Shown piece by piece: positions 1,096 to 50,433 of a stretch of DNA of 64,000 nucleotides. The translations under genes were made by a program, and so were the position numbers. The number at the start of each line of letters is the position of its first letter. Positions within the stretch are counted from its first letter, which is position 1. Below the pieces are notes generated by a model, which saw nothing but the letters and a program-made list of their open reading frames with translations, was not told the DNA's origin and did not search any database. The DNA is from Methanobacteriota archaeon (GTDB taxonomy: Archaea; Thermoplasmatota; Thermoplasmata; SG8-5; JAGLSY01), in contig JAEHCQ010000004.1 in NCBI GenBank assembly GCA_020696385.1, positions 96,001-160,000 on the forward strand. The letters are read 5' to 3'.

Positions 1096-1599
1096 TTGAC
1101 AGAAGTCGAGATAGTGGAGGCAATATTGTTCTCTTCCGGTAAGCCGATGACGATCCCTGATATTGCTAGAGCCGGCGACCTGGATGCTGATAAGATACGT
1201 TCTGCTCTCAAAAAGCTCTCCAGATCATACAAGAATCGCAATACCAGTCTTGAAATTGCCAAGATAGGTTCGAAATATGTTCTACAGCTTAGAGAGGAAT
1301 ATAAGAAATCTACCGAAACTGTCGCACAAAGAGAGCTCCCTCATGAAGTGATAAAAACAGCCGCCCTCATAGCCTATTACCAGCCAATGAAGAAGAAGGA
1401 TCTGGTGGAAATGATAGGCAGGCCAGCCAATCCTCATGTGGACGAGCTCAAGAAGCACAGGCTGATAACCGCCGAGCGCGGTGCCCAGGGAAACATCATG
1501 CTGAATACCACGCCCAAGTTCTTCGAATTCTTTGGATTGGAGATGACGAAGCCAGAAGAGCTGAAACAGATGCTGATGAAAAAAGCAGGATTAAAATAA
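1096..1599 (+). CDS. scpB: SMC-Scp complex subunit ScpB
   Basis: VEAILFSSGKP, TAALIAYYQP, TTPKFFEFFGL; TTG start after a GGTG SD-like sequence. Confidence 0.93.
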   Translation: MTEVEIVEAILFSSGKPMTIPDIARAGDLDADKIRSALKKLSRSYKNRNTSLEIAKIGSKYVLQLREEYKKSTETVAQRELPHEVIKTAALIAYYQPMKKKDLVEMIGRPANPHVDELKKHRLITAERGAQGNIMLNTTPKFFEFFGLEMTKPEELKQMLMKKAGLK

Positions 1600-1708
1600 T
1601 CAGCTACTTTTATCATACTGATGAAGAAAGCGGGTCTCAAATAAGACCCACTTTAACTTCATGCTGATGAAGAAGGCTGGGCTTAAATAATTGCCCAGCC
1701 ATATTCAT
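1570..1708 (+). repeat. Three tandem variants of the scpB 3' end (xLMKKAGLK*), each followed by its own imperfect inverted complement
   Basis: 30-bp copies at 1570-1599, 1615-1644 and 1661-1690 differ at third codon positions. Confidence 0.9.
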
Positions 1709-1770: not shown

Positions 1771-2832
1771 ATGTCTGGTTTTGAAAAGAGTAAGAGAATG
1801 GAATTGCCCCGAGAGGTCGTAGTAGGTCACGATGCCTTAAATGAGGCTCCCGAGGTCTGCAAACATCTTGGTCTTCAAAACTCCGGTATCCTGGTATGTG
1901 ATGAGACTACCAGATCCATTGCGGGAGATAAGGTCAAAGAACTCCTGGAGGATGCTGGTTTTGATATTGATGTGGTCACGATCAAAGCCGCAGATGGTGA
2001 CACTGTGAACACTGTAAGTTCTTTGGCAACAGAAGGAAAGGCTGGCTTCGCTCTTGGAGTTGGTGGCGGCCAGCCAATAGATATTGCCAAATCCGCCTCT
2101 TTCAATATCAAAATACCATTTCTAAGTATTCCGACAGCGGCTTCTCATGATGGTATCGTATCATCCCGAGCCTCGATAACAATGGGCGGCGTTAAGAAGT
2201 CACTTGACGCACATACTCCATTGGGGGTCATCGCTGATACCGGGATCATATCACAATCCCCGCATAGGCTCTTAGCGGCCGGTTGTGGGGACATTATATC
2301 CAATCTCACCGCAGTTAAAGATTGGAAATTGGCTCAGAGGCTGAGAAATGAGGAATACAGTAGCTATGCGGCCACGCTTTCCGAGATGGTTGCCAAGATC
2401 CTAATTGAGAATGCGTCACATATACGACCTGGCCTGGAGGAATCATCCTGGACCGTGGTCAAAGGTCTTGTGTCCTCAGGGGTTTCGATGAGCATTGCTG
2501 GCTCCTCAAGGCCAGCAAGCGGCTCCGAGCACAAATTCTCCCATGCCCTTGACATGATATGTGAAAAACCCGCCCTGCATGGTGAGCAATGCGGGCTGGG
2601 AACGATAATGATGATGTATCTTCACGGCGGTGATTGGGAGAAGATCAAGGAAGCTCTTTGGATAATCGGAGCTCCCACAACCGCCAAGGCCGCTGGCTTA
2701 TCAAATGATGATGTGATAAACGCACTGGTCAAAGCCCATGAGATAAAGCCCGATAGGTACACGATACTGGGCTACAAGGGAATGACCATAGACGCCGCAG
2801 AGAAATTGGCCAAGACCACGATGGTGATATGA
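1771..2832 (+). CDS. egsA: sn-glycerol-1-phosphate dehydrogenase
   Basis: GVGGG..IDIAK, PTAASHDGIVS, SSRPASGSEHKFSHALD, LHGEQCG. Confidence 0.97.
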   Translation: MSGFEKSKRMELPREVVVGHDALNEAPEVCKHLGLQNSGILVCDETTRSIAGDKVKELLEDAGFDIDVVTIKAADGDTVNTVSSLATEGKAGFALGVGGGQPIDIAKSASFNIKIPFLSIPTAASHDGIVSSRASITMGGVKKSLDAHTPLGVIADTGIISQSPHRLLAAGCGDIISNLTAVKDWKLAQRLRNEEYSSYAATLSEMVAKILIENASHIRPGLEESSWTVVKGLVSSGVSMSIAGSSRPASGSEHKFSHALDMICEKPALHGEQCGLGTIMMMYLHGGDWEKIKEALWIIGAPTTAKAAGLSNDDVINALVKAHEIKPDRYTILGYKGMTIDAAEKLAKTTMVI

Positions 2833-3257
2833 TGAGTATGTTGACAGTAGTTGGCGTAAGCCTGGCAAAGAAAGGCACGGAGATCATTTTTCTAGGCCCC
2901 CTATCTGAATGTAAGGTGTGTAAGGTCAAGAATATATGTTTTCATCTTGACAAGGGCAGTCATTACAAGATCGTCGGGGTAAGAGATGTCAAGCATGGAT
3001 GTGAAGTTCATGAAGATGGAGTCAAGGTCGTCGAGATCGAGAAGATACCTTTCAAGGCGGTCATGGACAAGAAGAAGGCCATTGATGGCTCTACCATGGC
3101 CTTTGAGTTACCAAGCTGCATAGAGAGAGGATGCGAGCATTATCTGCTGTGCTATCCACCGGGACTGGCTTCCAAGAATAAGGTTAAGATCCTATCACTG
3201 GATGGCAAGGTGGAGTGCCCTGCAGGCATGGCAAGAGTTAAGGTCACTCTTGAGTGA
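2829..3257 (+). CDS. UPF0179 family protein
   Basis: LTVVG..LAKKG, CxxCxxxxxC and HxCxxH patterns; typical position after egsA. Confidence 0.85.
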   Translation: MMSMLTVVGVSLAKKGTEIIFLGPLSECKVCKVKNICFHLDKGSHYKIVGVRDVKHGCEVHEDGVKVVEIEKIPFKAVMDKKKAIDGSTMAFELPSCIERGCEHYLLCYPPGLASKNKVKILSLDGKVECPAGMARVKVTLE

Positions 3258-3361
3258 CCTATATGATTTCGAGTAGGTGAGGGCGATTTTTCTTTTGGAT
3301 TGGAAACCTTGTTCTTTTGGAGCCCGAGCCAGCACAGAAATCAATAAAAGAAAAGGCTTCC
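3258..3361 (+). mobile_element. Small structured non-coding insert (copy 1) between duplicated UPF0179 3' ends
   Basis: Flanked by 75-bp direct repeats 3183-3257 and 3362-3436 (4 mismatches); homologous to 50203-50380. Confidence 0.7.
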
Positions 3362-3436
3362 GTTAAGACCCTATCACTGGATGGCAAGGTGGAGTGCCCT
3401 GCAGGTATGGCAAGAGTGAAGGTCACTCTTGAGTAA
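3362..3436 (+). repeat. Displaced second copy of the UPF0179 3' end
   Basis: Encodes VKTLSLDGKVECPAGMARVKVTLE* versus VKILSLDGKVECPAGMARVKVTLE* in the gene. Confidence 0.95.
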
Positions 3437-3520
3437 TTAATCAAACCAAACTAGGTCATTTAGAGTTTACATATTCTATACAATGAGCCTGTGGAAATAT
3501 ACCGGTTCTAATAATTTACA

Positions 3521-5578: not shown

Positions 5579-5662
5579 GCGGGGATAGCTCAGCCTGGTA
5601 GGGCGCAGGATTGCTAATCCTGTGTTGGTAACAACTCGGGGGTTCGAATCCCCCTCCCCGCG
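5579..5662 (+). tRNA. tRNA-Ser(GCT)
   Basis: GCGGGGA/TCCCCGC acceptor stem, CAGGA-TT-GCT-AA-TCCTG anticodon arm, long variable arm, TTCGAAT loop. Confidence 0.95.
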
Positions 5663-5686: not shown

Positions 5687-5772
5687 GCTGAGGTAGCTAA
5701 GCCCGGTTTAAGGCGCTGGCCTTGAGAGCCAGTGGGAGCAATCCCTCAGGAGTTCGAATCCCCTCCTCAGCG
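5687..5772 (+). tRNA. tRNA-Ser(TGA)
   Basis: GCTGAGG/CCTCAGC acceptor, CTGGC-CT-TGA-GA-GCCAG arm, long variable arm; one A.C mismatch in the T stem. Confidence 0.92.
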
Positions 5773-28294: not shown

Positions 28295-31200
28295 TTATTT
28301 GATGAACTTCTTCATGTTCTTCGTATAACTCTCTTCAGATATCTTGCCATCTGCAAATGCTTTATCTATTTTGGCGATCATTTCCTCATCTGATAATTTG
28401 GGTTTTGCAGACACCTCTGGTTCTGGCTGTGGAGTAGCTTCCGGTATGGGAGCTGGCTCAGCAACCGGAGCGACTACTGGTGGAACTGCTGCTGACATTT
28501 CTGGTGGAGGAGTTGCCGGTGGCATTCCAGGAGGTGGTGGTGGTGGTAGTTCTCCTGGCTGAATCGGTATTTGGGCCTGAGCTGTTGGTACTGGCTCTGC
28601 CTGTGGTACTGGTACTTCCGCTGGCGGTGTCGGTGGAGCTTGGGGTTGAATCGGTGTTTGGACCCTTGGTGCTGGTTGCGGCATGATGGCAGGTGCAGGA
28701 GTTATCATAGGTCGTTGTGGTTCATCCTCATCCCTGTCCCTACTCACAAGCAATATGATCGCTAATACCACCAGGAGGAATAAGAGTAACACCCACCAGT
28801 ATTTTAGCAAGAAGTCATTGAAGCTAGAAGTAGATGCTGGCGAGCTATCTGGATCCTGCGGATCCGTACCTTCCTCATACTCTTCCAGGTTGGTGAAGCC
28901 ATCTCCATCATCGTCATCATCATCATCATTCGAGTTCAATGGATCAAGATCATTCTCCTCTTCCCATGTATCTGGCATATCATCATTGTCGTCATCATCA
29001 TCTTCATTGTTACCAGTTCCATCCCTATCCGTGTCTGTATCCTCGGAGGGATCCAATGGGAAATCATCATCCACATCATCCACACGATCATTATCATCAT
29101 CTGGATCATCGATGTCAAGTATGCCATCCCCATCTGTGTCCGTGTCATCCACTGGTGTGATCTGCTGATCACCCTCAATAGTGATGAATCCCCAACCATA
29201 TCCTCCCAATGCGTTCCCTGCAATGTCACTTGCCGATGTGGGGATGGATATGATGTACGATGTATTGTATTCCAGGGCTGGAGTGGGCATAAAGAGAAGA
29301 ATGCTATTGCTGTAGCTCCAAATCGCATTGCCACTGAAGAGGGTCCAGGTATTTGTTCCATCTGTCAGCTCAAAGCCATTCTCAATGCTCTGTTTGTTCA
29401 TCGGTTCATTGAAGACCAGCTCGATAGATGGTGTAACTGAGACATCTATTCCTGTTGGAGCATTTGATTCCACATAAGGTGTGATCGTGTCCACAATGGT
29501 CTGTACGAAATCTGTTCTCATTGCCTCTTCATTGCCAGCGTGGTCTGTCGCCATGGTGTAGAATTCGTATAAACCATCTGAAGGAGCGGTGAAAGATATG
29601 GAAATGCTGGCGGAACTATAGGTATTGTACAATCTCCAGGCACCGCCATCCACTCTGTAACATAATTTCATAATACTGATCCCACTTCCATCATCGTCCT
29701 GCGCATCTAAATCCAGGGTGAAGGTTCTTGACGTTTGGTAAGTGTTCAGATCCCACATCTGTGATATTGGTGCTGTCGTGTCAATAATGAAATTATCTAA
29801 AAAGTCAGGAACTACGATGTTTCCTACCATATCCTCTGCACCAGATACGATCAAAGTATATCTCCCGTTAGTGGTCGATTCTAGAATTTCAAAATTGCCT
29901 TCCCATATGGTCATCGATGTCCAATATCCACTGATCACAATATCATCATAGGGTGATGCAGTGCCCATTGTTACTATTGGCTGCAATCCCTGGTTCATGC
30001 TCTTGCTGAAGGTGATCGTGAAGGTGACCGTGCCCGTGTTCAGTGGCGAGTTTGGACTCATAATTATAGAGGTTATAACAGGCCGAGTGCCATCATATCC
30101 AGCATCCGAGTCTTTACTGGCCGTTGCATTCTCGTAATTGCCAGCATCATCGATGGCCACTGTGTGGAATTGATAATATCTCTCTCCATCCGGACATGTG
30201 AATGCGAAATTCCCATTTGCTGATGTTCCGGAAATTGCCAGGGTCTGGAACATCGCCCAGCCTCCCCATGTCACATTATCCACACTGGATCTGTAATAGA
30301 GATCGATATTGCTTAGTTCATAATTATCTGTTGCCAAATACGGAACATTGAATGGGGAAGAAGTGAACCACCCCAGCCATCCGCTTCCCGCGTTGGAAAC
30401 TGGTTCAATTCCATCTGTGACATTGACCCACATGGTATCTGTGTCCGAGCTACCCACTCCATCTCTCACAGTCAGAGTGACCTGTATATTGCCGACATTG
30501 TTGAATGTGTATGATGGGTTCACACCATACAGTCTGACTATTCCTCCATCTGTGAATGTCCATGTGTAATTGACTATGCCTATGACATCTATAGAACCGC
30601 TTCCATCAAACTGTACGAACAAGCTCTGCGGTCCTGCTTTATCAGAACCTGCGTTCGCGATCGGTGAAACACTATCATATCCCGCATTGGAATCCATTGT
30701 AAATGGGCTAGTTTCCACATTGCCAGCACTATCTGTCGCTATTGTGTAGAATTGGTAGTATCCTTGTCCGTTCGGACATCCGAATGCGTAGTTTCCGCTT
30801 GCTGATGTTCCGAAAATAGCTATTGACTGGAAAGGTGTCCAGCCACCCCATGTAACATTATTCGCACTGTATCTGTAATAGAGATTGATATTGCTTAGTT
30901 CGTAATTGTCTGATGCTGAATAAGGAACATTGTATGAGGATGTTATGAACCATCCCAGCCATCCGTTTCCCGCATTGGAAACCGGGCGATATCCATCTGT
31001 GACATACACCCACATGGTATCCATGTCCGAGTTTCCCATCCCATCTGTCACGGTCAAAGTGACCATCACATTACTGATATCATTGAATGTGTATGATGGG
31101 TTTTCTCCATATAGTGTGACTGCCCCTCCGTCTGTGAATGTCCATGTGTAGTTGTCTATTCCGATATTATCCAATGAGCCACTCCCATCAAAGATGACAA

Positions 31201-34200
31201 ATAGACTTTGAGGTCCAACCATATTGGCTCCTGCATTTGCGATAGGTGAAACATTATCAAATCCAGCTTCAGAGTCTCTGCTAAGGGGTGATATTTCCAC
31301 ATTGCCAGCATCGTCTGTCGCTATTGTGTAGAATTGGTAGTATCCTTGTCCATTCGGACATCCGAATGCGTAGTTTCCGCTTGCTGATGTTCCAGAAACA
31401 GCAATTGATTGGGATAGTGCCCAGCCACCCCAAGCGATATTATCTGTACTGAACCTGTAATAAAGATTAATATTGCTTAGTCCGTAATTGTCTGTTGCCG
31501 AATATGGAACATTGAATGGGGCGGTCGTAAACCATCCCAGCCATCCACTTCCTGCACTGGAGATCGGATCATATCCGTCTGTGACATTGACCCATATGGT
31601 ATCCGTGTCCGAGTTTCCCACTCCGTCCATCACGGTCAGAGTGATCAATATATTGTCAATATTATTGAAGGTATATGAAGGATTTGATCCATATAATGTC
31701 ACTGGGCCAGCATCCATAAATGTCCATGTGTAATTGGCTATGCCCGTGGTATCGGATGATCCTGAGCCGTCAAGTAGTAGGTTAACCCCTTGTATTATCT
31801 GCTGATCTGATCCAGCATCTGCGATAGGCGGGATCCCATCATATCCAGCTTCTGAGTCTGTGGTCAAAGGTACATCTTCCACATTGCCAGTATCATCAAT
31901 GGCTACTGAATAGAATTGATAATATCCTTCCCCATTGGGAGATGTGAATAGGAAATTACCATTTGCCGCAGTTCCGGAGACTGGTGTTGAACCAAAGAAG
32001 ATCCATCCGGTCCATGTGGCATTGTCCGAGCTATATCTGTAATAGAACATGATATTTCCAAGGTCATAATTGTCTGTGGCAGAATATGGAACATTGAATG
32101 TGGTGGTCGTGAACCACCCCAGCCACCCATTTCCAGCATTGGAAACTGGATCATAACCATCTGTAACATTGACCCATAAGGTATCCGTGTCCCAGTTGCC
32201 AGATGCATCTGAGACATTTAGGGTGACCAGTATATTTCCTATATTGTCAAATAAATAGATGGGATTGACATTGTAAAGGGTGATGGGAATGCCATTATCT
32301 GTGAATGTCCAGACATAGCTATCAATAGCGAAATTATCAGTTGATCCACTCCCATCCAATGATTGGTTCGTTCCCTGTGTGATCTGTAGATCGGCTCCTG
32401 CATCCGCCATAGGAGCAGTACAATCAACAGTAAAGTTGTATACTGGAGTTTGAGTAATGAAGCCAAGAGTATCTATTGCCTCTATCATGTAAGGTACGTT
32501 AATATCAATTCCCAGTGCGGGAATGATATAGTAAAATTCATTGCCAGATGCAAAGATCATGGGTACAGTTATCCAAGTAGCTCCATTATCTATGGAATAA
32601 TATAGTGTGACAGCTCCAATTCCATTCGAATCTGTGACATTTGCAGTGATGGTCACATCCTGAACCCCATTTGGACTTTGAGGCGAGTGGTCTATATCAG
32701 TTATAAATGGAGGGTAATTGGTCACATAGGATAGAGTGGGAGAGATGTCATTGCTTCCCCCTGTGTCAAATACCTTGATATAATAACTCACGGTGGTCTC
32801 TATGTAGGCAGGTGGTATCGCTGAAGCGTAAACTGCATTGGTCGCACTTCCTGATATGAATGCCATTGGTTGTGAATTCCAATTCAAACCACCATCGAAG
32901 GAATACCAAAGTGCGACACTTCCTATTCCAAAATCATCGCTTATGTTTGCGAAGATAACAGGAGAGTCAATCGCACTTGAGGGGCTTGGCACACTGGAAA
33001 GGTCGATGACCATTGGGTTTTGATCAATGGAATAAACATAGAAGGGTGATATGTCCCAATTGCCTGCTACATCAACAGCATTGATATTGTAGAAGACCAT
33101 GGAAACACCTGGGCCTGAGGCTGGTATGGTACCCACCCATGCACTATCACCTGAGCCATCTATGATTATGTCATCCACAAAGAAATCATCAATGGTCGCC
33201 GCTGTACCAATACTTCTGAACCTGAACTGGAAATTGGAATGCATCGCATTGGCAGGCAGAGAATTGATCACATAAGTGTAGGTGTTTTGTAAAATGGATG
33301 CTCCCGGTACTTGCCATAGATTTACCCAAGCATTTGAAGATGTTAAATAATCTAGGAACAGAAAATCATTTGCATCCGGGGCCTCTCCGCCGCCTCCCAT
33401 CTCGTAATAAAAGCTGATGTTCGCATCCGTGTATGTTGATAGATCCATTACCACGGAAGTTAGGATATCATCCGCGCCGTCCATATTAAGTGAATAAGGT
33501 GCCGAAGGTTCGTTCGATCCTATTGCATTTATAACTGGGCTATTCACCATTGATGCCCAGTTTGATGCATCGAGGGTCATGCTCGGGAAGTGTTCCTCGA
33601 ATATTATGGCTGAATTTTGGCCTCCACTCATGGGTGCGCTATTCCATGTCATCATCATATCCATGGAATACCAGAGAGTTGCATTTGCCACCCCGCTGGC
33701 ATCTGTTATATTAATTGATACATCTACGGGATTGGTCGCATTAGGGGATGTCGGATCAATGCTCGGAATTCCGAACACTGGTGGATCCGCATCCACATAA
33801 TAAGAATATTGCGGAGAGGTGGACGAAACACCTTGATTATCGGTTGCTCCAACATAGAAAAGCACAGTTAATGATATCCCAGTGGCCGGTATGAATCCAT
33901 AATACTCATCGCCAACACCATTGGTCATAGGCATATTGAGCCATGTGGCTCCGCCATCTATGGAATAATAGATGAAAGCAGCTTGAATTCCATCAAAATC
34001 TGTTATATCTGCTGTTACATTGACATTGGTAGATCCTCCCGGATTTAGAGGTGTATAGATGACATTGGCAATCACTGGAGGATATCCTGTTTCATAGCTC
34101 TGTGTCACAGAAACATTGCTGTTCCCTGAAAGATCGGATGCGCTCACGTAGTATAAGACCGTGGTAACCATATTGGATGGAGGAATGGTAGCAAGGAACA

Positions 34201-37200
34201 TGGCATCTGTAAGATTGCCAGATTGCATGGCCATTGGCAGTGATGACCAAGACACACCATCAAAGGAATACCACAGGTCTACATTATCTATTTCACCATA
34301 ATCTGATATGTTCGTGAAGACAGGACAGGATATGGTGGCATCAGAGGGATCTGGTATTGAGGTTACATCCAAAATATCTGGTGGTATTGAATCAATAATA
34401 TAACTGTACGTGGGTGAGTTTCCTTGATTACCTATTAGATCTGCAGCACTGACATAATAATATACCTCGGATACACCCAGGCCAGCAGCTGGTATGGTCC
34501 CGATCCATTGATTTTCAGTCTCGATGCAAAAATCATCGATGTACCATCCTTCATAGATAACAGAGATATCTGTATCAACTCTAAATCTCACCCATACGGA
34601 TGGATCTCCAGCGTAGGCCGAGATATCATAGTTATGCTGCTTCCAGTAGTTGTATCCTGAAGATGCAGGCACACTCGTGGCCGGTATCCGATCCAATTGA
34701 TTCCATGTTAATCCATTTGAGGATATCTCCACGTATGCATGATCGTATGTATATCCCTCTATTCTAAGCCAGTCATAGAAGGTTAAGTTAGCCGAGGTAA
34801 CTCCAGATAGATCGATCAGAGGTGACTGAAGCCAGAAATCAGCATAGTTGGCATATGTGTTATCCAGGTCAGTTCCCCAGCAATAAGAACCTGAATAAGC
34901 AGTTCCTGGGCCGTATGTTGGTAGCCCGTGTTGCCATTCATCCATTGCACCACCATGTGTCCATCCATTCAGTGGTTGGCCACCACCACCAGCACTACCA
35001 TATTCCATATCGTCTTCAAATATCGTGCCTACACCTCCTGATGTTCCAACCATCGCAACACTGCTCCATGTTGCCTGATCGTCCATCGAATACCAGAGGG
35101 TTCCATTTGCCACGCCTGTATCATCTGATATTGAAATAGTGACGTCAACTGGAGAGGTTGCATTTGGGTATTGTGGGCTTGTGGCCGGTATTCCGAATGT
35201 TGGTGGGTCTGCGTTTATATCATAGGAGTATGTTGCGGATGTGCCTGTCGTGGTTAAGGTATCTGTTGCCTCAATGTAATAGAACACGGTCAATGTTATC
35301 CCAATTGCCGGGATGACCCCATAATACTCATCGCCAACACTGTTGGTCATAGGGATGTTCAACCAGGTGACGCCTCCGTTGATCGAATAATAAAGGAAAG
35401 CTGAGGCCACACCATTTATGTCTGTTATGTCAGCAGTTACATTGACAGTCGAAATACCACTTGGATTCAGAGGCGAGTGGACAATATTTGCAATAATTGG
35501 TGCTAGATTGGTGTTATAGGTCTGGGTTGCCGATATGGCATTGTTATTGTAAATGTCGAAGGCGCTCACATAGTAATATACAGTTGTCTCGATGCCAGCT
35601 GCCGGGATCGCGGCACCATACATTGCATTGACTATGTTGCCACTGAGGTAGCTCATTGGCTGTGATGCCCAGGTAACTCCGTTATAGGAATACCACAGGA
35701 ATATGTTACCGAGCCCTAGATTATCTGTTATATTGGTGAATACCATGGCCGGAACAAGTGCATTTAAGGGGTCTGGCACACTTGAAACATCCACTATGAC
35801 GGGTGAAATATAATCAATGGAGTAGTTGTAGATGGCTGAATTATTGAAGTTGGCCGCGGCATCCGAGGCATTGACATAGTAGTAAACTATCGGAACACCT
35901 GAGCCGGCGGCCGGGATTGTCCCATACCACATGCCTGATGTCACTTTAACATCATCTATGTACCAGCCCTCGTTTTGTGTAACAGCAGATGTCGACTTGA
36001 AATTGAATCTGACCCGTACATCGCTGTTGCCGCTGAAGGGACTCAGGTCATAGGTTGACTGGTACCAGTCTCTGTATGTATCTCCGGTGAAAGCGTCGCC
36101 CCCCGAAAAGGCGTTACAGGCAGAATACCATGTATCTCCTGTAACCGGGTCAATTTTGGTCCAGGTGGAGTTGTCAGTTGAAACCTCCACTATGCCTCCG
36201 GCCTCGGTGTTATAGAAATCATGGGTGTGCCAGAAGCTGAGCTTCTCGTTGGTAGATCCAGTTGAAAGGTCAAAGGGTGGAGATATGAGATTACTATTGC
36301 TACCGGACATGTAATTGGCATCGAGATCAGTTCCCCATGCCGTGCTTCCGCTGTGGGCCCCGACGATATTCCCGTTTGCGGGGGTTCCGCTCTCCCAAGG
36401 GGTGCTGGCTGACGGATATGTAAGCCTTATGCGAACCTCATTGGATCCGCCGAGGTTGTCAACCTCTGCGCCGTAATCGCACATGATGTCTATTACTCCA
36501 TTGCTTGCCCAGGTATTAATCTGCGCCGCCGTGACCACCCACGAGTGTGTGGGGACCGGCTGCCATGTGAGGGCATTCTGAAAACCTATCTGCCCCCGTC
36601 CGATGTATGTTCCGACCAGGTTCTCGGCCCACACATCTATGTACTCGGTCAATGAGTTAAAATCCCCATTCCTCGCATCAAGATAGATCATTCCGTTTCC
36701 TGTGGCAGGGCTGGTTACAGTGAAGGAATGGGTGGTCGGCTGCGGGTTGCCTGCAAGGAAGTTGATGACCTGGATATTTGATTCGTCGAAATTGCTGGTC
36801 CCACCGGTTCCGACCCATCCGGGAGATCCGGATTCAAAATCATCCTCGAATAATATTCCTGTTGGCCCTCCCACCCCTGTCATTGGGGCGCTGTTCCATG
36901 TCGATTGGTTGTCGAATGAATACCATAGAGTTCCGTTGGTAACTCCAACATTGTCCATGATGGGTATTGAGACATTAACCGGTATTGTCGGGCCCGGGTA
37001 TTGAGGGTCTATGGCCGGGATGTCGAATGTTGGTGGCTCGGTGTCCAATGCGAAAGTTATGATGCCCGAGGTGTTGGTCACTCCGAAATTATCCTGTGCC
37101 CAGATGTAATAGGAAACCGACGGGACTCCAGTTCCCACAGGAGGAATGGTTCCCATCCACTGGCTGCCGCCCATAAATGCCATCGGCACACTTGGCCAGG

Positions 37201-39859
37201 TGGCCCCCCCATTAGTTGAATAATATACGAAGGCCGAGGCGATCCCATCGGGGTCGATTATATCTCCCGTCACATCAATGTTCGTGAAGCCGTTGGGGTT
37301 CTGTGGTGTTTGAATTATATTGGTAATATCAACATCGAAGTTCCTGATCATTATCGGGCTTGACTTCAAGTTGTTGCCAGGAATCACATCCGAGCTAAGG
37401 CCATAGGGGTCTATCCAGGCATAAATAATCATTGCTCCGGGAATCAGGGGCATCCAGGAAATGGATGCTATACTGGTTGAATTTACCAGAACGTTTACAC
37501 TGTCTACACCGATCTCCGTCACTCCCACATCGAGAATGTTGTCACCATTGACATCCGGGTTCTCGTTGAAAAAGTATACGTCAGCCATTGAAGAATCCAA
37601 ATTCCCTACATTCCATATCGAGGCATTTATGTAAAACAGCATTCCATTTGGCACCGGGCTGGAGGGGTCAAATACAATACCTCCCGGCAGCATGGTCAAG
37701 TCTGCGCCATCCATGTTGGCGAAGGACCACACTTCTGACCAGCCCAGGTTAGAGTTGGCTGGAGAGGCGTATCTGGCCATCACTCTCCAATAATAGGTGC
37801 CAGTACTCAAAGCGGCGCCCAGGGTGTAGACATCATTAACTGTTAGGATATCAACTTCTGGAGATGAGAAATCCATGTTGTTGTCAATCTGCAATGCGTA
37901 GTCCACAAGATTGCCGTTTGTGGTGGAATCATGCATATCAAACCATTCAAATGTGGTCACTGCCGGGGCAAGGGAGTTATTTTGTGGTGATATGAGAAGT
38001 GGTATGCTCATTGGAATTGTGGTTGTCGGTATGCCATTTGCGGTAGTCCGTCCTTCACCTTCTCCACCGTCAAAGCCCTGTCCTGGAGAGGTAGGTGCTG
38101 TGCCGCCCAGCCCTCCAGTGGCTTGGATAAATGTAGATTCTGTTATTGATGGAAGGCTTGCCTGAATATCAAGGGTTGCAGCACCGCCATCTCCAACGAA
38201 GCCAGTCAGGGTGCATTGGCCGCCGATGGCGGAATTGGAGCAGCTTCCTCCGGCTCCGCCGTATCCACCGCCTCCGCCACTTTCATCGCCGGTTCCGCCG
38301 GTGCCTCCATCGCCCCCGTTTCCTCCGGTTGCTGTGAATGAATTTACTACTGAAGCGAATTTATTTCCTTCAAGGATTATGCTGCTGCTTCCTCCGCAAC
38401 CCACATAATCTTGGACAACGGTATCTCCGCCGATTCCGGCTCCGGTGTCATGCCCGGCACCGCCACCGCCGCCGTAGCCTCCTCCGCCACCACCTTCTCC
38501 GCCGGTGTAGGGATCATATGGAGTGTCTCCATCTCCCCCATCTCCTGCCTGTCCTCCATTTCCTCCAGAAACAGAAACACTGCACATTGCCATGATGCTC
38601 AGTTGAGAATTGATATTGAACAATGATGTTCCTCCACTACCTACCCAGTCGCTTATAATGCCTCCATCGCCGCCAGTACTGGCCGGGGCAGATCCAAAGG
38701 TGTTCTCGGCACCACCACCGCCACCATAGCCTCCGCCACCGCCGCCGCAAGCATAGCCGCCGTGTCCGCCGTCTCCGGCATCTCCTCCGTTTCCGCCTGA
38801 TAAAAAGGAATTCGTATTCAGCATGATAATTGTGTCTGCACTGTCTAAGGCCAAGGTTGTTGAGCCTCCTCGACCGACATTGCCCGAGACATCTCCTCCT
38901 GGAAGCCCGTAGTACATGATGGCATCCCCACCAGAGTATCCACCTCCACCAGCGCCATTCTGCCCGTATCCGTGTCCTCCGTTACCGGCCTTCCCACCGT
39001 TTCCGCCTTGGGCAAATATATCTGTATCAGTAACTTGAAGTTTGTAGTCGGATGCAAAGAAGCTAATTGAATTTCCACCGGAGCCAACATCACCAGAAAC
39101 ATCGCCGCCATTGTTGTATCCGCCGCCTTTTCCGTGTCCATTGTTGCCACTGCCTCCGTCTGATGCATCGCCGCCGTCTCCACCTTCCACATTCAATATC
39201 GAATTGTCTATGATAAGAGCATTGGCCAGGTTCTGGCACCCTGCGTAAAGCTCGGCCTTCCCTCCGGCAGCCACGATTCCCGATAGGATACCGCCAGTTG
39301 TCCATGCATTGGATACAGCATTGGTGCTTGGAGGAAGGTCATAGCCATCTCCTCCATATATGCCGATTGTGGAGTTTCCAATCTCCATTATATTTGTGGC
39401 GGTTACATTAAACTCAGCAAGCCCGCCATGGCTGGAAGGTTGGGAAAATGCTCCATCGCTTCCCCTCATGAATATCACACCACCATTCTTCACCTCGAAA
39501 TTGCTACAGTAGCCGATAAAAGCCACGCTGCCTGAGTCTACTGGATTGGTCAAAGTAATGTTGCCACCATTCACCTCAACGCTGGAGTCAGCCTGCAAAA
39601 CTATGTTGGTTGCGTCAAAGGTTGCCCCGACTGGAACCACTAAACTTCCAGTTCCGGTAATTATTATGTTATTGTACGTCTCAAAGCCAGCCACCGTGTG
39701 TGTGGTCGAAATTACAAGGTTCGGACCTGTGCCAACCGGATTTGGATTATTTGATCCAGCACTAGCCACACTCACCATTGGAAATAGTGCGGATATTGTC
39801 ATTAATACTACTACAAATATACTCATTGCCCACTTATTACTCTGGTTGTGAATTCTCAT
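28295..39859 (-). CDS. Giant (3854 aa) cell-surface protein
   Basis: Signal peptide, Gly-rich repeats, CARDB-like and Ig-like repeats, jelly-roll domains (GWYIDD), PKD repeats (ADAG..DGSGS..YTWTF), DxDxDG Ca-binding repeats, TM segment, Pro-rich tail and short helical C-terminus. Confidence 0.9.
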   Translation of the reverse strand: MRIHNQSNKWAMSIFVVVLMTISALFPMVSVASAGSNNPNPVGTGPNLVISTTHTVAGFETYNNIIITGTGSLVVPVGATFDATNIVLQADSSVEVNGGNITLTNPVDSGSVAFIGYCSNFEVKNGGVIFMRGSDGAFSQPSSHGGLAEFNVTATNIMEIGNSTIGIYGGDGYDLPPSTNAVSNAWTTGGILSGIVAAGGKAELYAGCQNLANALIIDNSILNVEGGDGGDASDGGSGNNGHGKGGGYNNGGDVSGDVGSGGNSISFFASDYKLQVTDTDIFAQGGNGGKAGNGGHGYGQNGAGGGGYSGGDAIMYYGLPGGDVSGNVGRGGSTTLALDSADTIIMLNTNSFLSGGNGGDAGDGGHGGYACGGGGGGYGGGGGAENTFGSAPASTGGDGGIISDWVGSGGTSLFNINSQLSIMAMCSVSVSGGNGGQAGDGGDGDTPYDPYTGGEGGGGGGYGGGGGAGHDTGAGIGGDTVVQDYVGCGGSSSIILEGNKFASVVNSFTATGGNGGDGGTGGTGDESGGGGGYGGAGGSCSNSAIGGQCTLTGFVGDGGAATLDIQASLPSITESTFIQATGGLGGTAPTSPGQGFDGGEGEGRTTANGIPTTTIPMSIPLLISPQNNSLAPAVTTFEWFDMHDSTTNGNLVDYALQIDNNMDFSSPEVDILTVNDVYTLGAALSTGTYYWRVMARYASPANSNLGWSEVWSFANMDGADLTMLPGGIVFDPSSPVPNGMLFYINASIWNVGNLDSSMADVYFFNENPDVNGDNILDVGVTEIGVDSVNVLVNSTSIASISWMPLIPGAMIIYAWIDPYGLSSDVIPGNNLKSSPIMIRNFDVDITNIIQTPQNPNGFTNIDVTGDIIDPDGIASAFVYYSTNGGATWPSVPMAFMGGSQWMGTIPPVGTGVPSVSYYIWAQDNFGVTNTSGIITFALDTEPPTFDIPAIDPQYPGPTIPVNVSIPIMDNVGVTNGTLWYSFDNQSTWNSAPMTGVGGPTGILFEDDFESGSPGWVGTGGTSNFDESNIQVINFLAGNPQPTTHSFTVTSPATGNGMIYLDARNGDFNSLTEYIDVWAENLVGTYIGRGQIGFQNALTWQPVPTHSWVVTAAQINTWASNGVIDIMCDYGAEVDNLGGSNEVRIRLTYPSASTPWESGTPANGNIVGAHSGSTAWGTDLDANYMSGSNSNLISPPFDLSTGSTNEKLSFWHTHDFYNTEAGGIVEVSTDNSTWTKIDPVTGDTWYSACNAFSGGDAFTGDTYRDWYQSTYDLSPFSGNSDVRVRFNFKSTSAVTQNEGWYIDDVKVTSGMWYGTIPAAGSGVPIVYYYVNASDAAANFNNSAIYNYSIDYISPVIVDVSSVPDPLNALVPAMVFTNITDNLGLGNIFLWYSYNGVTWASQPMSYLSGNIVNAMYGAAIPAAGIETTVYYYVSAFDIYNNNAISATQTYNTNLAPIIANIVHSPLNPSGISTVNVTADITDINGVASAFLYYSINGGVTWLNIPMTNSVGDEYYGVIPAIGITLTVFYYIEATDTLTTTGTSATYSYDINADPPTFGIPATSPQYPNATSPVDVTISISDDTGVANGTLWYSMDDQATWSSVAMVGTSGGVGTIFEDDMEYGSAGGGGQPLNGWTHGGAMDEWQHGLPTYGPGTAYSGSYCWGTDLDNTYANYADFWLQSPLIDLSGVTSANLTFYDWLRIEGYTYDHAYVEISSNGLTWNQLDRIPATSVPASSGYNYWKQHNYDISAYAGDPSVWVRFRVDTDISVIYEGWYIDDFCIETENQWIGTIPAAGLGVSEVYYYVSAADLIGNQGNSPTYSYIIDSIPPDILDVTSIPDPSDATISCPVFTNISDYGEIDNVDLWYSFDGVSWSSLPMAMQSGNLTDAMFLATIPPSNMVTTVLYYVSASDLSGNSNVSVTQSYETGYPPVIANVIYTPLNPGGSTNVNVTADITDFDGIQAAFIYYSIDGGATWLNMPMTNGVGDEYYGFIPATGISLTVLFYVGATDNQGVSSTSPQYSYYVDADPPVFGIPSIDPTSPNATNPVDVSINITDASGVANATLWYSMDMMMTWNSAPMSGGQNSAIIFEEHFPSMTLDASNWASMVNSPVINAIGSNEPSAPYSLNMDGADDILTSVVMDLSTYTDANISFYYEMGGGGEAPDANDFLFLDYLTSSNAWVNLWQVPGASILQNTYTYVINSLPANAMHSNFQFRFRSIGTAATIDDFFVDDIIIDGSGDSAWVGTIPASGPGVSMVFYNINAVDVAGNWDISPFYVYSIDQNPMVIDLSSVPSPSSAIDSPVIFANISDDFGIGSVALWYSFDGGLNWNSQPMAFISGSATNAVYASAIPPAYIETTVSYYIKVFDTGGSNDISPTLSYVTNYPPFITDIDHSPQSPNGVQDVTITANVTDSNGIGAVTLYYSIDNGATWITVPMIFASGNEFYYIIPALGIDINVPYMIEAIDTLGFITQTPVYNFTVDCTAPMADAGADLQITQGTNQSLDGSGSTDNFAIDSYVWTFTDNGIPITLYNVNPIYLFDNIGNILVTLNVSDASGNWDTDTLWVNVTDGYDPVSNAGNGWLGWFTTTTFNVPYSATDNYDLGNIMFYYRYSSDNATWTGWIFFGSTPVSGTAANGNFLFTSPNGEGYYQFYSVAIDDTGNVEDVPLTTDSEAGYDGIPPIADAGSDQQIIQGVNLLLDGSGSSDTTGIANYTWTFMDAGPVTLYGSNPSYTFNNIDNILITLTVMDGVGNSDTDTIWVNVTDGYDPISSAGSGWLGWFTTAPFNVPYSATDNYGLSNINLYYRFSTDNIAWGGWALSQSIAVSGTSASGNYAFGCPNGQGYYQFYTIATDDAGNVEISPLSRDSEAGFDNVSPIANAGANMVGPQSLFVIFDGSGSLDNIGIDNYTWTFTDGGAVTLYGENPSYTFNDISNVMVTLTVTDGMGNSDMDTMWVYVTDGYRPVSNAGNGWLGWFITSSYNVPYSASDNYELSNINLYYRYSANNVTWGGWTPFQSIAIFGTSASGNYAFGCPNGQGYYQFYTIATDSAGNVETSPFTMDSNAGYDSVSPIANAGSDKAGPQSLFVQFDGSGSIDVIGIVNYTWTFTDGGIVRLYGVNPSYTFNNVGNIQVTLTVRDGVGSSDTDTMWVNVTDGIEPVSNAGSGWLGWFTSSPFNVPYLATDNYELSNIDLYYRSSVDNVTWGGWAMFQTLAISGTSANGNFAFTCPDGERYYQFHTVAIDDAGNYENATASKDSDAGYDGTRPVITSIIMSPNSPLNTGTVTFTITFSKSMNQGLQPIVTMGTASPYDDIVISGYWTSMTIWEGNFEILESTTNGRYTLIVSGAEDMVGNIVVPDFLDNFIIDTTAPISQMWDLNTYQTSRTFTLDLDAQDDDGSGISIMKLCYRVDGGAWRLYNTYSSASISISFTAPSDGLYEFYTMATDHAGNEEAMRTDFVQTIVDTITPYVESNAPTGIDVSVTPSIELVFNEPMNKQSIENGFELTDGTNTWTLFSGNAIWSYSNSILLFMPTPALEYNTSYIISIPTSASDIAGNALGGYGWGFITIEGDQQITPVDDTDTDGDGILDIDDPDDDNDRVDDVDDDFPLDPSEDTDTDRDGTGNNEDDDDDNDDMPDTWEEENDLDPLNSNDDDDDDDGDGFTNLEEYEEGTDPQDPDSSPASTSSFNDFLLKYWWVLLLFLLVVLAIILLVSRDRDEDEPQRPMITPAPAIMPQPAPRVQTPIQPQAPPTPPAEVPVPQAEPVPTAQAQIPIQPGELPPPPPPGMPPATPPPEMSAAVPPVVAPVAEPAPIPEATPQPEPEVSAKPKLSDEEMIAKIDKAFADGKISEESYTKNMKKFIK
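30090..32420 (-). repeat. Four tandem ~582-bp intragenic repeats (PKD domain plus GWLGWF Ig-like domain)
   Basis: The GWLGWF block recurs near 30370, 30950, 31535 and 32115 with clear nucleotide similarity; boundaries approximate. Confidence 0.85.
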
Positions 39860-49101: not shown

Positions 49102-50202
49102 ATGTCAGAAGTTTTCTTTGCCAAAGTGGGCGCCAGTAAGCACAATGAAAGATTACCAAATAAGGTTCGCCAGTTATTTGACAAAGCTGGTTTTAACAAT
49201 TTAATTTCGGAGAAGGACATGGTCGCCCTCAAGCTTCATTTTGGAGAGCCTGGCAATACCACATTTCTCAGGCCACAATTTACCCGTCAGATCGTGGACA
49301 AGGTGAAGGAAAGCGGTGGTAAGCCTTTCCTTACAGATGCAAACACACTATACACTGGCCAGAGATCCAATGCGGTGGATCATCTCAATGCCGCCGCCCT
49401 GCACGGATTCCTGCCAGCGGTTGTCGATGCTCCCATCATCATCGCGGATGGACTGACTGGCCGCGATTTCGTCGAGGTGGATGTGGATCTCAAGCACCTT
49501 AAATCAGTTAAGTTCGGAGCAGCTGCCTATCACGCTGACGTGATAGGAGCGATTTCTCATTTCAAATGCCACGTTGTCGGTGGTATCGGGGGCGCGATAA
49601 AGAACCTGGGTATGGGTTTCGGAAGTCGTGCTGGCAAGCAGCAGATGCATTCGGATACCAAGCCAGTTGTCGATGGCGAGAAGTGCATATCATGCGGTAC
49701 TTGTGCGAAATGGTGTCCGGAGGACGCGATCGATATTCCGGATAAAGCGATCATCAATCAGGACAAGTGCATCGGATGTGGTGAATGCCTTATACAGTGC
49801 CCGACCAAGGCCATCAATGTAAGATGGGATGCCAGCAGCAAGAATATGCAGGAGAAAATGGTCGAGTACACTTACGGAGTGATGAAGAATAAAAAGGACA
49901 AGACATTCTTCTACAATTTCTTACTGGATATCACGCCGGATTGCGACTGCGTGCCCTGGAGTGGGAAGCAGATAGTGCCAGATATCGGAATTATGGCATC
50001 CACAGACCCGATAGCTATCGATCAGGCATCGGCCGATTTTGTTAACCAGCAAACAGCCAATCCTGGATCCAAGATAGAGATTGCGGTAAATCCGGGTGAT
50101 GACAAGATCCACGAAGTTCATAATATCGATTGGGACCTACAGCTCAAATATGGAGAAGAAATAGGTCTGGGTAGTCGAAAATACAAGATAATCGAGATTT
50201 GA
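49102..50202 (+). CDS. DUF362 domain protein with 2x[4Fe-4S] ferredoxin insert
   Basis: KLHFGE.GN, ISHFK.H, GGAIKNLGMG, two CxxCxxCxxxCP motifs, PDCDC, DPIAID. Confidence 0.92.
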   Translation: MSEVFFAKVGASKHNERLPNKVRQLFDKAGFNNLISEKDMVALKLHFGEPGNTTFLRPQFTRQIVDKVKESGGKPFLTDANTLYTGQRSNAVDHLNAAALHGFLPAVVDAPIIIADGLTGRDFVEVDVDLKHLKSVKFGAAAYHADVIGAISHFKCHVVGGIGGAIKNLGMGFGSRAGKQQMHSDTKPVVDGEKCISCGTCAKWCPEDAIDIPDKAIINQDKCIGCGECLIQCPTKAINVRWDASSKNMQEKMVEYTYGVMKNKKDKTFFYNFLLDITPDCDCVPWSGKQIVPDIGIMASTDPIAIDQASADFVNQQTANPGSKIEIAVNPGDDKIHEVHNIDWDLQLKYGEEIGLGSRKYKIIEI

Positions 50203-50380
50203 TGCCAGGGCAATCGGCATTACCGAGCGAGCAGGCTTTGGCGAGTTTCTTTTTAGATGTGCGCTTCACGAAGCGCATGCATCTATTTTATCAAGCACAT
50301 GAACTGGGCTTGATTCGATTTGTCCGTCTTTTTTCTTTGTGAGCCAAAGCCAGCACAGCGAGGTTAAAAGAAAAAAGTGG
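50203..50380 (+). mobile_element. Small structured non-coding insert (copy 2) between duplicated DUF362 3' ends
   Basis: Flanked by 53-bp direct repeats 50150-50202 and 50381-50433 (4 mismatches); homologous to 3258-3361. Confidence 0.7.
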
Positions 50381-50433
50381 ATGGGGAGGAAATAGGTCTG
50401 GGTAGTCGAAAATACAAGATAATCGAGGTATGA
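50381..50433 (+). repeat. Displaced second copy of the DUF362 3' end
   Basis: Encodes GEEIGLGSRKYKIIEV* versus GEEIGLGSRKYKIIEI* in the gene. Confidence 0.95.

What the first reader, a model, noticed from the sequence alone, without database searches (positions are those of the whole stretch)
3183..3436. Candidate new mini-element that replaces gene 3' ends (UPF0179 copy)
Seen: the last 75 bp of the gene recur 104 bp downstream with 4 differences (two silent, TGA>TAA, one Ile>Thr) and no indels. The insert is homologous to one 47 kb away at an unrelated gene. Shared blocks are GAGyAGGnnnnGGCGAnTTT-C-TTTT..GAT, TTCTTT..GAGCCnnAGCCAGCACAG and AAAAGAAAA. In both, a terminal hairpin ends at the point where the displaced gene end begins. 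Inference: the mostly silent differences suggest both copies were once functional alleles. This is not an ordinary target-site duplication; it looks as if the element arrived carrying a relative's gene end and pushed the resident end downstream. One possible mechanism is target-primed reverse transcription of a gene+element transcript resolved by homology; DNA-based homing is another. No enzyme for it is encoded in the window.
Basis: partly seen in the sequence, partly recalled or inferred. Interest (0 to 1): 0.85.

Follow-up and report, generated by a model that had tools for sequence, protein, structure and literature searches.

The report
Structured mini-element flanked by duplicated gene ends
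An uncultured Thermoplasmata archaeon carries dozens of copies of a roughly 90-base folded non-coding element that sits just after genes and is usually flanked by two copies of the gene's own end, a pattern not described for any known prokaryotic mobile element.

Summary
Window 3183-3257, the end of a UPF0179 gene, recurs at 3362-3436 with 4 of 75 differences. A 104-bp insert lies between the copies, and its homologue sits at 50203-50380 between two copies of another gene's end.

The insert ("E") is a roughly 90-nt element with 39-43 copies in this 2.28-Mb genome. It has two covarying helices and a tail-loop pairing, and it matches no Rfam family. A covariance model finds it in 33 of 151 class-level genomes, clade by clade.

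In this genome 33 of 43 copies have flanking direct repeats of about 20-318 bp. The right repeat abuts E's 3' end. The repeats are gene 3' ends, tRNA ends, or in one case a whole tRNA gene. Differences between copies are 74% third-position (69 of 93). With a congener as outgroup, even the downstream copies changed mostly at third positions (27 of 40).

Of loci occupied in one congener and empty in the other, 24 of 28 carry the repeat. Shared loci show concerted evolution and compensatory changes in the stem.

About 9 gene-end echoes exist without E. In two of them the congener shows that the downstream copy is the resident end.

No RT is present, and a Y1 transposase does not track E.

Best reading (0.42): a [gene end + spacer + E] unit integrates by homology. 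The mechanism is unproven.

The parts
2829..3257 (+). UPF0179 gene, complete. Its last 75 nt are the upstream repeat copy.
   Evidence: ORF; Pfam PF03684 at 5e-41.
3183..3257 (+). Upstream copy of the gene end (H_up), in frame with the gene, stop TGA.
   Evidence: It matches relatives at 3 of 3 informative variable sites.
3258..3263 (+). Unique spacer (CCTATA) between the stop codon and E.
   Evidence: Family matches begin at about 3264-3270.
3264..3361 (+). Element E. The outer stem pairs 3264-3270 with 3337-3343. The variable inner stem pairs 3276-3284 with 3322-3330. The T-rich loop is 3285-3321. The conserved motifs are CGAGTAGG (3270-3277) and CCAGCACAG (3329-3337). The A-rich tail 3344-3361 is complementary to the loop.
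   Evidence: nhmmer; CM R1 at 93.5 bits; covariation; tail-loop pairing; contigs of other organisms diverge after 3362.
3362..3436 (+). Downstream, displaced copy of the gene end (H_down), stop TAA. No start codon is consistently in frame across loci.
   Evidence: It carries the derived states at the variable sites.
49102..50202 (+). DUF362 / 4Fe-4S gene. Its last 53 nt (50150-50202) are the upstream repeat copy.
50223..50380 (+). Second E copy, long form. It carries a nested insert of another small repeat family at about 50259-50319. It is preceded by a unique 20-nt spacer at 50203-50222.
   Evidence: CM at 62 bits.
50381..50433 (+). Downstream displaced copy of the DUF362 gene end, with 4 differences: 3 at third positions and 1 at a first position.
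1568..1690 (+). Echo without E. The last 9-10 codons of the ScpB gene (MLMKKAGLK*) occur three times (1568-1599, 1613-1644, 1659-1690) with mostly synonymous differences. The second and third copies pair with the bases after their stop codon.
   Evidence: G002 has one functional end plus a truncated relic of the third copy. ScpB is Pfam PF04079.

Best explanation
E is a conserved, folded, non-coding and non-autonomous element of a group of uncultured Thermoplasmata. It lies in the 3' flank of genes and tRNA genes, on the sense strand.

The flanking duplication is best explained as the footprint of how a [gene end + spacer + E] unit enters a locus. The unit has a variable 5' start inside the gene and a fixed 3' end at the base of E's folded domain. 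It is joined into the homologous gene by one homologous exchange within the gene end. This could be a single crossover of a small circle, or one homologous end plus one illegitimate end. The incoming end then completes the gene, and the resident end is left immediately after E.

Donors are mostly close (conspecific) alleles, so both copies carry coding-type variation. Later exchange between the two copies homogenises them, expands them into arrays, or deletes E cleanly.

Shown: the anatomy, the fold, the coupling of repeat and element, the coding-type divergence of both copies, orthologous persistence, concerted evolution, and foreign-end arrival at echoes without E.

Inferred: the unit intermediate, the homology-dependent joining, the enzyme, and any role of E in the mRNA 3' end.
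For: Anatomy:
- 33 of 43 copies have flanking repeats.
- In the 26 loci passing the stricter filter, the right copy begins within 16 nt of E's end (a selection criterion of that call), and there is no microhomology at the junction in 25 of 26.
- A unique spacer of 0-129 nt lies on the 5' side and has no match at other E loci.

Coding-type history in both copies:
- 69 third-position against 24 first- and second-position differences in 17 clean loci. The binomial p is 9e-16 against 1/3 and 3e-8 against 0.46.
- The pattern replicates in other genomes: 20 against 6 and 26 against 11.
- With G002 as outgroup, changes in the downstream copy are 27 of 40 at third positions (p = 1e-5) and in the upstream copy 20 of 28.

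Coupling to dynamic loci: 24 of 28 loci occupied in only one of G000 and G002 carry a repeat or array.

The same process without E: at C49:65010 and C11:272797 the G002 single end and its flank match the G000 downstream copy, while the upstream copy encodes the same peptide with different codons.

Import: at C3:2432 the upstream copy is 97% identical to G002, against 88% for the neighbouring gene sequence and for the downstream copy.

Not an assembly artefact: the same architecture, with the same stem barcode and the same repeat boundaries, occurs at orthologous loci of a MAG whose contig names indicate a separate assembly.
Against: - No intermediate (circle or linear unit) and no enzyme has been seen.
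- At most E loci both copies are equally distant from G002. A donor allele is therefore not demonstrated there, and in-situ duplication followed by allelic exchange is not excluded.
- At the finding's own locus the downstream copy holds the derived states, including one non-synonymous change.
- Eight repeat pairs across searches show no differences between the copies, so a foreign donor is not needed for them.
- At one orthologous locus the copies are identical within each genome but differ at 8 of 40 positions between species, so similarity can be maintained after insertion.
- The model does not explain how E first reaches a new gene, why E is co-oriented with it, or the copies without repeats: 10 of 43 in G000 and 34 of 48 in other genomes.
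- ORFs were called crudely, and G002 is 82-92% identical, so homoplasy blurs the polarisation.
Confidence: 0.42

Rival explanations
1. E is inserted by a trans-acting enzyme that cuts the two strands far apart and at variable distance, or primes synthesis on a nick as non-LTR retroelements do. Fill-in then creates a long, variable target-site duplication. Only insertions whose duplication spans a stop codon or a tRNA end survive. The coding-type differences come later, from recombination with other alleles and between the two copies.
For: - Repeat length is variable, and the right copy abuts an A-rich 3' tail, as with SINE/LINE insertions (the comparison is from recall).
- In about 8 loci the repeat runs right up to E's 5' end.
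- Identical repeat pairs exist.
- 24 of 28 lineage-specific loci carry repeats.
- Concerted evolution is shown at one locus.
- The repeats can be non-coding or include a whole tRNA-Phe gene.
Against: - No RVT_1 match in G000-G003, and RT is present in only 8 of 41 relatives without tracking E.
- There is no conserved motif at the upstream boundary.
- Unique spacers of 12-129 nt between the left repeat and E are unexplained.
- Downstream copies changed mainly at third positions (27 of 40), which neutral decay of a duplicate does not predict.
- Strong co-orientation with the upstream gene needs an extra assumption.
Confidence: 0.25
2. E first inserts without any duplication. Its stable fold then provokes local replication or repair errors (stalling, template switching, break repair on a sister chromosome) that duplicate the adjacent upstream DNA.
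For: - Copies without repeats exist: 10 of 43 in G000, and 2 of 6 shared loci have none in either genome.
- Tandem arrays (repeat-E)n occur at C47:27153-27592, C2:12212-12484, C11:530550-530799 and C44:62074-62343.
- Fragments of E's 5' end recur after the downstream copy at several loci.
- The spacer of some echoes without E ends in a hairpin.
Against: - A tandem duplication of [gene end + E] would leave two E copies, yet most loci have one.
- There is no microhomology at the E-to-repeat junction in 25 of 26 loci.
- It does not explain the coding-type changes in downstream copies or the foreign ends at echoes without E.
Confidence: 0.12
3. E is an archaeal counterpart of bacterial REPINs. On this view it is a vertically inherited hairpin repeat copied at low rate by the conserved low-copy IS200-type Y1 (HUH) transposase, acting on single-stranded DNA.
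For: - G000 has one Y1 gene (C50:1965-2396), 278 nt upstream of an E copy and co-oriented with it.
- One or two similar copies occur in most genomes of the order.
- The HUH and C-terminal Tyr motifs are present.
- E is about 100 nt, hairpin-forming and extragenic, with a clade-wise distribution and orthologous copies kept across species.
Against: - NCBIfam places the protein in IS200 (119.5 bits) and not in RAYT (28 bits against a cutoff of 80).
- No E lies beside the Y1 gene in the 11 other genomes checked, and its flanks do not resemble E.
- G029 and G032 have 5 and 8 E copies but no Y1 match.
- IS200/IS605-type transposition makes no duplication (recalled).
Confidence: 0.1
4. The duplicated ends are an assembly artefact of mixed strains in a metagenome bin.
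For: The genome is a 50-contig bin with many tiny contigs. Two apparent echoes are scaffold-gap artefacts (C33:249596 and C46:8135).
Against: - No read path could join E's 3' end to the interior of a gene unless that junction exists.
- The same structure, with the same boundaries and barcode, is present at orthologous loci in another assembly with contigs up to 956 kb.
- It also appears in many other MAGs.
Confidence: 0.02

Closest known systems
Mobile ORF elements of fungal mitochondria: free-standing homing-endonuclease genes that carry a foreign gene C-terminus (Allomyces atp6; Glomus atp6, atp9, cox2, nad3). Source: PMC3630166, passages read.
   Same: The host gene is completed by an inserted copy of its own 3' end, and the native end is left downstream of the insert. 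The two ends differ mainly by synonymous changes. Here the echoes at C49:65010 and C11:272797 behave this way.
   Different: Those elements encode the endonuclease that drives them, and each targets one gene. E is about 90 nt with no ORF, is found at about 30 unrelated genes and tRNA genes in one genome, and at most E loci neither copy is clearly foreign.
REPIN-RAYT systems of bacteria. Sources: bioRxiv 10.1101/2021.07.10.451892, passages read; PMC3116915, search listing only.
   Same: Both are extragenic hairpin repeats of about 100 nt, present in tens of copies, persisting in a lineage and inherited at orthologous sites. A low-copy Y1 transposase is present in many host genomes.
   Different: [quoted passage not shown] E is not a doublet of REP palindromes, its Y1 neighbour is IS200-type, E does not flank it, and some E-positive genomes lack it. 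REPINs are not reported to duplicate gene ends; I saw no such statement in the passages read.
Integrative elements that recombine into the 3' end of tRNA or protein genes and bring a replacement end (recalled textbook knowledge, for example prophages in tRNA genes or in icd).
   Same: The gene or tRNA 3' end is duplicated on both sides of the insert, and the element-borne copy restores the gene.
   Different: Those use an element-encoded integrase and one fixed attachment site. Here the repeat differs in gene and length at each locus, and the insert has no integrase.
MITEs and IS200/IS605-derived palindrome-associated elements (recalled; MITE reviews seen only in the search listing).
   Same: Short, non-autonomous, structured, multi-copy and intergenic.
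   Different: MITEs give short duplications of fixed length. E's flanking repeats range from about 20 to 318 bp, and its ends are not simple terminal inverted repeats.
SINE/LINE insertion by target-primed reverse transcription (recalled).
   Same: Variable-length target duplications, an A-rich 3' end abutting the duplication, and a less regular 5' junction.
   Different: No reverse transcriptase in G000-G003, no 5' truncation series, and the host is prokaryotic.

Membership tests
Any Rfam RNA family | Match to a curated covariance model | tested here: not met
   One search found only 4 tRNAs in the window at gathering score. One search found nothing credible in 3100-3500 at E up to 10.
REPIN-RAYT | Extragenic hairpin-forming repeat of about 100 nt in many copies | tested here: met
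   39-43 copies. Helices are supported by covariation: 80.5% paired against 59.9% in shuffles, with 0 of 500 shuffles reaching the observed value.
REPIN-RAYT | Single-copy RAYT-class transposase flanked by the repeats | tested here: not met
   The Y1 protein scores as IS200 (119.5 bits) and falls below the RAYT cutoff (28 against 80). No E lies beside it in 11 other genomes. G029 and G032 have E but no Y1 match.
REPIN-RAYT | Vertical inheritance and long persistence | tested here: inconclusive
   Six loci are shared by G000 and G002, four of them shown to carry the same stem barcode. The clade-wise distribution is 33 of 151 genomes. However, 28 loci are lineage-specific.
MITE | Short target-site duplication of fixed length | tested here: not met
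   Flanking repeats range from about 20 to 318 bp.
Homing-endonuclease mobile ORF carrying a gene end | Duplicated gene C-terminus on both sides of the insert | tested here: met
Homing-endonuclease mobile ORF carrying a gene end | Insert encodes an endonuclease | tested here: not met
   E is 80-206 nt. No consistent ORF or start codon is present, and no long member was found.
Homing-endonuclease mobile ORF carrying a gene end | The native (downstream) end matches close relatives and the inserted end is foreign | tested here: inconclusive
   Met at the echoes without E at C49:65010 and C11:272797. At E loci both copies are about equally distant from G002, and at C3:2432 the upstream copy is the G002-like one. 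At the finding's locus the upstream copy matches the relatives.
Non-LTR retroelement / SINE | Reverse transcriptase available in the genome | tested here: not met
   PF00078 has no match in G000 (94.5% complete) or G001-G003, and matches 8 of 41 relatives without tracking E.
Site-specific integrative element | One fixed attachment site and an adjacent integrase | tested here: not met
   The repeats differ in gene and length at each locus. The four Phage_integrase matches lie on C47 and C1, not beside E.

The most novel reading that the evidence does not exclude
E is a new kind of non-coding selfish element that uses the host gene's own 3' end as its homing arm. A folded cap of about 90 nt defines the end of a small [gene end + E] unit that enters the homologous gene by recombination. 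It replaces the gene's end without breaking the gene, spreads between alleles, and can leave cleanly. The echoes without E show that gene-end renewal by diverged homologous ends is a general, previously unnoticed mode of recombination in these archaea.
Probability: 0.3. Interest if true: 0.9.

Novelty: new variant of a known kind. Interest (0 to 1): 0.8.

Why it matters
If the reading holds, this is a way for a tiny non-coding element to insert inside coding sequence without damage, by bringing or regenerating the part of the gene it displaces. It would also leave a dated fossil record of old gene ends downstream of living genes.

This gives a direct handle on recombination between diverged alleles in uncultured archaea. 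It flags a likely source of annotation errors, namely short ORFs and pseudo-ends after genes. It also adds a conserved, structured RNA-like family to a lineage with no cultured members close to it.

The element could be tested as a 3'-end stabiliser or terminator, or as a substrate of a single-strand nuclease.

Tried and rejected
- Translation of the downstream copy from E was rejected. The junction phase is 6/5/3 across the three phases (3 loci could not be phased), and 7 of 17 loci have no in-frame start.
- DGR-type repeats were rejected on reading: the differences are not adenine-specific and no RT is present.
- A conserved target or PAM-like motif at the upstream boundary was not found.
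- Spacer transduction from other E loci was not found.
- Viral vector: 0 matches in viral contigs.
- Searches used a wrong spacer length and say nothing.
- Sequencing runs: one DNA run with a small share of words was listed, and no RNA holder was listed. Laying it showed only other E copies from other organisms, with no strain of this genome and no joint across E.
- The metagenome scan with the UPF0179 protein found nothing above 57% identity, so no same-species alleles were obtained.
- The IS200-type tnpA link could not be supported.
- The echo at C11:411973 is the shared tail of two adjacent acidic alanine-rich proteins, which I take from recall to be the ribosomal stalk pair. C33:249596 and C46:8135 are scaffold gaps. 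C46:40506 and C22:198021 are tandem arrays.
- Literature searches returned no description of such an element. These were five keyword searches of an open-access library only, and supplements were not consulted.

Full report
**1. The observation**

The window is G000:C44:96001-160000.
- The last 75 nt of ORF 2829..3257 recur at 3362-3436 with four substitutions and no indel. The ORF matches UPF0179 at 5e-41.
- The 104-bp insert shares GAGCCNNAGCCAGCACAG with only one other place in the window, at 50341. No matches are expected from shuffles.
- At that second place a 178-bp insert separates two copies of the last 53 nt of a DUF362/4Fe-4S gene.
- A third case lacks the insert: the last 9-10 codons of the ScpB gene occur three times at 1568-1690.

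**2. The insert is a multi-copy folded element ("E")**

Copy number and boundaries:
- An iterated nhmmer search finds 43 copies in the 2.28-Mb, 50-contig genome. A covariance model finds 39 at E up to 0.01.
- Family similarity starts about 6-12 nt into the insert and ends at its last base.
- Contigs of a cold-seep metagenome run that hold other copies diverge after 3362.

Structure, from an alignment of 28 short copies from G000, G002 and G007:
- There is an outer stem and a variable inner stem. 80.5% of cells pair, against 59.9% in shuffles (0 of 500 reach the observed value).
- There are 83 double-sided changes against 21.5 in shuffles. Slide controls give 24-40% paired.
- The common type has tandem G·A/A·G in the outer stem, and other copies replace it with Watson-Crick pairs.
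- G·U pairs outnumber A·C 16 to 4 on the strand co-oriented with the upstream gene.
- The A-rich tail is complementary to the T-rich loop: a mean of 12.1 contiguous pairs, against 7.6 for shuffled tails and 9.0 for reversed tails, with subfamily-specific co-variation. This region is low in complexity, so this helix is less certain.
- Rfam has no match.

**3. Distribution**
- Record titles of relatives name uncultured Thermoplasmata or Methanomassiliicoccales-labelled MAGs.
- BLAST finds E in 15 of 41 relatives.
- The model finds it in 33 of 151 class-level genomes, clade by clade: f1 4/4, f2 2/2, f3 2/2, f4 9/9, f6 5/5, f12 7/7, f15 2/2 and f19 1/1. Many families score 0 of 10-17.
- It has no match in the viral contig collection.

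**4. The duplication is a property of the family**

In G000:
- 33 of 43 copies have a flanking direct repeat at my score threshold. Some of these belong to tandem arrays.
- 26 loci pass a stricter filter requiring the right copy within 16 nt of E's end.
- Lengths run from about 20 to 318 bp.
- The left copy ends 0-129 nt before E, and that spacer is unique.
- The repeats are gene 3' ends in 17 clean loci (ORF of at least 100 aa) and tRNA 3' ends. At C50 the repeat holds a whole tRNA-Phe gene.
- 21 of 42 copies lie within 150 nt after a co-oriented ORF stop, against 745 of 3000 random intergenic points (crude ORFs).

Elsewhere:
- 8 of 14 copies examined in G002 have flanking repeats, 1 of 6 in G007, and 14 of 48 testable copies in about 15 further MAGs.

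A self-BLAST of G000 shows that high-identity gene-end repeats occur only with E between them. Other local repeats are tandem arrays, intragenic repeats or scaffold gaps.

**5. Substitution pattern**
- In the 17 clean loci the copies differ at 69 third, 16 first and 8 second codon positions. That is 66 synonymous against 17 non-synonymous codons out of 405.
- This rejects random placement (p = 9e-16). It also rejects a rough expectation of 46% for one constrained and one neutral copy (p = 3e-8). The 46% figure is my estimate.
- The bias recurs in other genomes: 20 third against 6 other and 26 against 11.
- With G002's single copy as outgroup, the downstream copy changed at 27 third and 13 other positions, and the upstream copy at 20 and 8. 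G002 is only 82-92% identical, so some polarisations will be wrong.
- The downstream copies are not read from E: the junction phase varies and 7 of 17 loci lack an in-frame start.

**6. History**

In a systematic comparison with 1.87 Mb of G002:
- 28 syntenic loci are occupied in one genome and empty in the other, and 24 of them carry a repeat or array.
- Six loci are shared: four with repeats in both genomes and two with none in either.
- Ten G000 loci and five G002 loci could not be mapped.
- Because repeat-flanked copies can be lost cleanly by exchange between the repeats, "empty" may mean loss rather than absence of gain.

At the shared loci:
- In the four loci examined in detail, E has the same stem barcode in both species.
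- One locus shows two compensatory double substitutions in the stem.
- At that locus the two repeat copies are identical within each genome but differ at 8 of 40 positions between genomes. That is concerted evolution.

At individual loci:
- At most E loci both copies are about equally distant from G002.
- At C3:2432 the upstream copy is 97% identical to G002, against 88% for adjacent sequence and for the downstream copy. The downstream copy keeps the congeners' two extra codons.
- At the finding's own locus, G002 and G003 are empty.
- G001 has a truncated 5' part of E after a similar spacer.
- The relatives agree with the upstream copy at the three informative sites.

**7. Echoes without E**
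- A protein-level scan looked for the last 9 residues of 1442 crude ORFs within 350 nt downstream. It finds 25 hits at score 30 or more, against 0.0 in five permutations. Eleven have E between the copies and 14 do not.
- After removing two gap artefacts, a tandem array, a low-complexity case and a paralogue tail, nine echoes remain.
- G002's single end and its flank match the G000 downstream copy at C49:65010 and C11:272797, and less sharply at C46:95885. The upstream copy encodes the same peptide with about 8 and 5 nucleotide differences respectively. At C11:708904 the echo is shared by both species.
- So displacement of a resident end by a diverged homologous end does occur in this genome, independently of E.

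**8. Enzymes**
- RVT_1 has no match in G000 (94.5% complete) or G001-G003, and is present in 8 of 41 relatives without tracking E.
- G000 has four tyrosine-recombinase matches, none beside E.
- One IS200-type Y1 transposase lies 278 nt upstream of the E copy at C50. It is IS200 by NCBIfam, its flanks do not resemble E, E is not beside it in 11 other genomes, and G029 and G032 have E but no Y1 match.

**9. Reading**

The data fit best a unit [gene end + spacer + E], with a fixed 3' end at E's folded domain, that is joined into the homologous gene by recombination. Later exchange between the copies follows.

A true long, variable target duplication followed by allelic exchange is the main rival. 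A structure-provoked local duplication and a REPIN-like Y1-driven system are weaker rivals. An assembly artefact is very unlikely.

The mechanism, the enzyme and any RNA-level role remain inferred.

**10. Literature**
- The nearest described case is the mitochondrial mobile ORF that carries a foreign C-terminus (PMC3630166, passages read).
- REPINs are said not to have been detected in archaea (bioRxiv 10.1101/2021.07.10.451892, passages read).
- The Pyrobaculum C/D-box MITE-like element is different (PMC6009581, passages read).
- Statements about integrases in tRNA or icd genes, LINE/SINE duplications, IS200/IS605 mechanics, kink-turns and homology-facilitated illegitimate recombination are from recall.

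Noticed in passing
window 1568-1690: The ScpB gene end (MLMKKAGLK*) is present three times with mostly synonymous differences and no E between the copies. G002 has one functional end plus a truncated relic of the third copy, which forms the hairpin after its stop codon.
   Followed up: partly
G000 C49:65010-66755, C11:272797-273402, C46:95885-97171, C11:708904-709572, C11:292338-297758, C11:175497-176867, C11:80630-82180: Gene-end echoes without E. In the first two the congener's single end matches the downstream copy, and the upstream copy is a synonymously diverged newcomer.
   Followed up: partly
window about 50259-50319; also G000 C11:13678-14095 and C33:174328-174452: A second small repeat family (...TTTATTTTATCAA...GGGYTTGATTCGAT) is nested inside long E copies and also occurs on its own.
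   Followed up: no
G000 C50:1231-1796 (locus L132): Two complete tRNA-Phe genes flank an E copy, so the flanking repeat of about 300 bp there contains a whole tRNA gene. The genome's only IS200-type tnpA lies just upstream, at 1965-2396.
   Followed up: partly
L005 (G001) just after its UPF0179 stop: A truncated 5' part of E with a nested small hairpin, missed by the profile search. It shows that this locus was occupied before G000 and G001 split.
   Followed up: partly
window 30137-32427 and 33744-37208: Long in-frame-looking repeats with periods of 582 and 1422 nt on a large gene region, presumably repetitive surface-protein domains. Similar arrays fill C11:84-150 kb and C50:33-45 kb.
   Followed up: no
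window 5579-5662 and 5687-5772: Two adjacent tRNA genes of 84 and 86 nt.
   Followed up: no
G000 C46:40506-40723, C22:179356-179593, C33:151407-151747: Perfect or near-perfect intergenic tandem arrays with periods of about 62, 74 and 81 nt. The first overlaps a gene's stop codon.
   Followed up: no
G000 C11:662712 and C47:165290: Some E copies abut what look like gene 5' ends on the opposite strand. At C11:662712 the 63-nt flanking repeat seems to include a start codon region.
   Followed up: no
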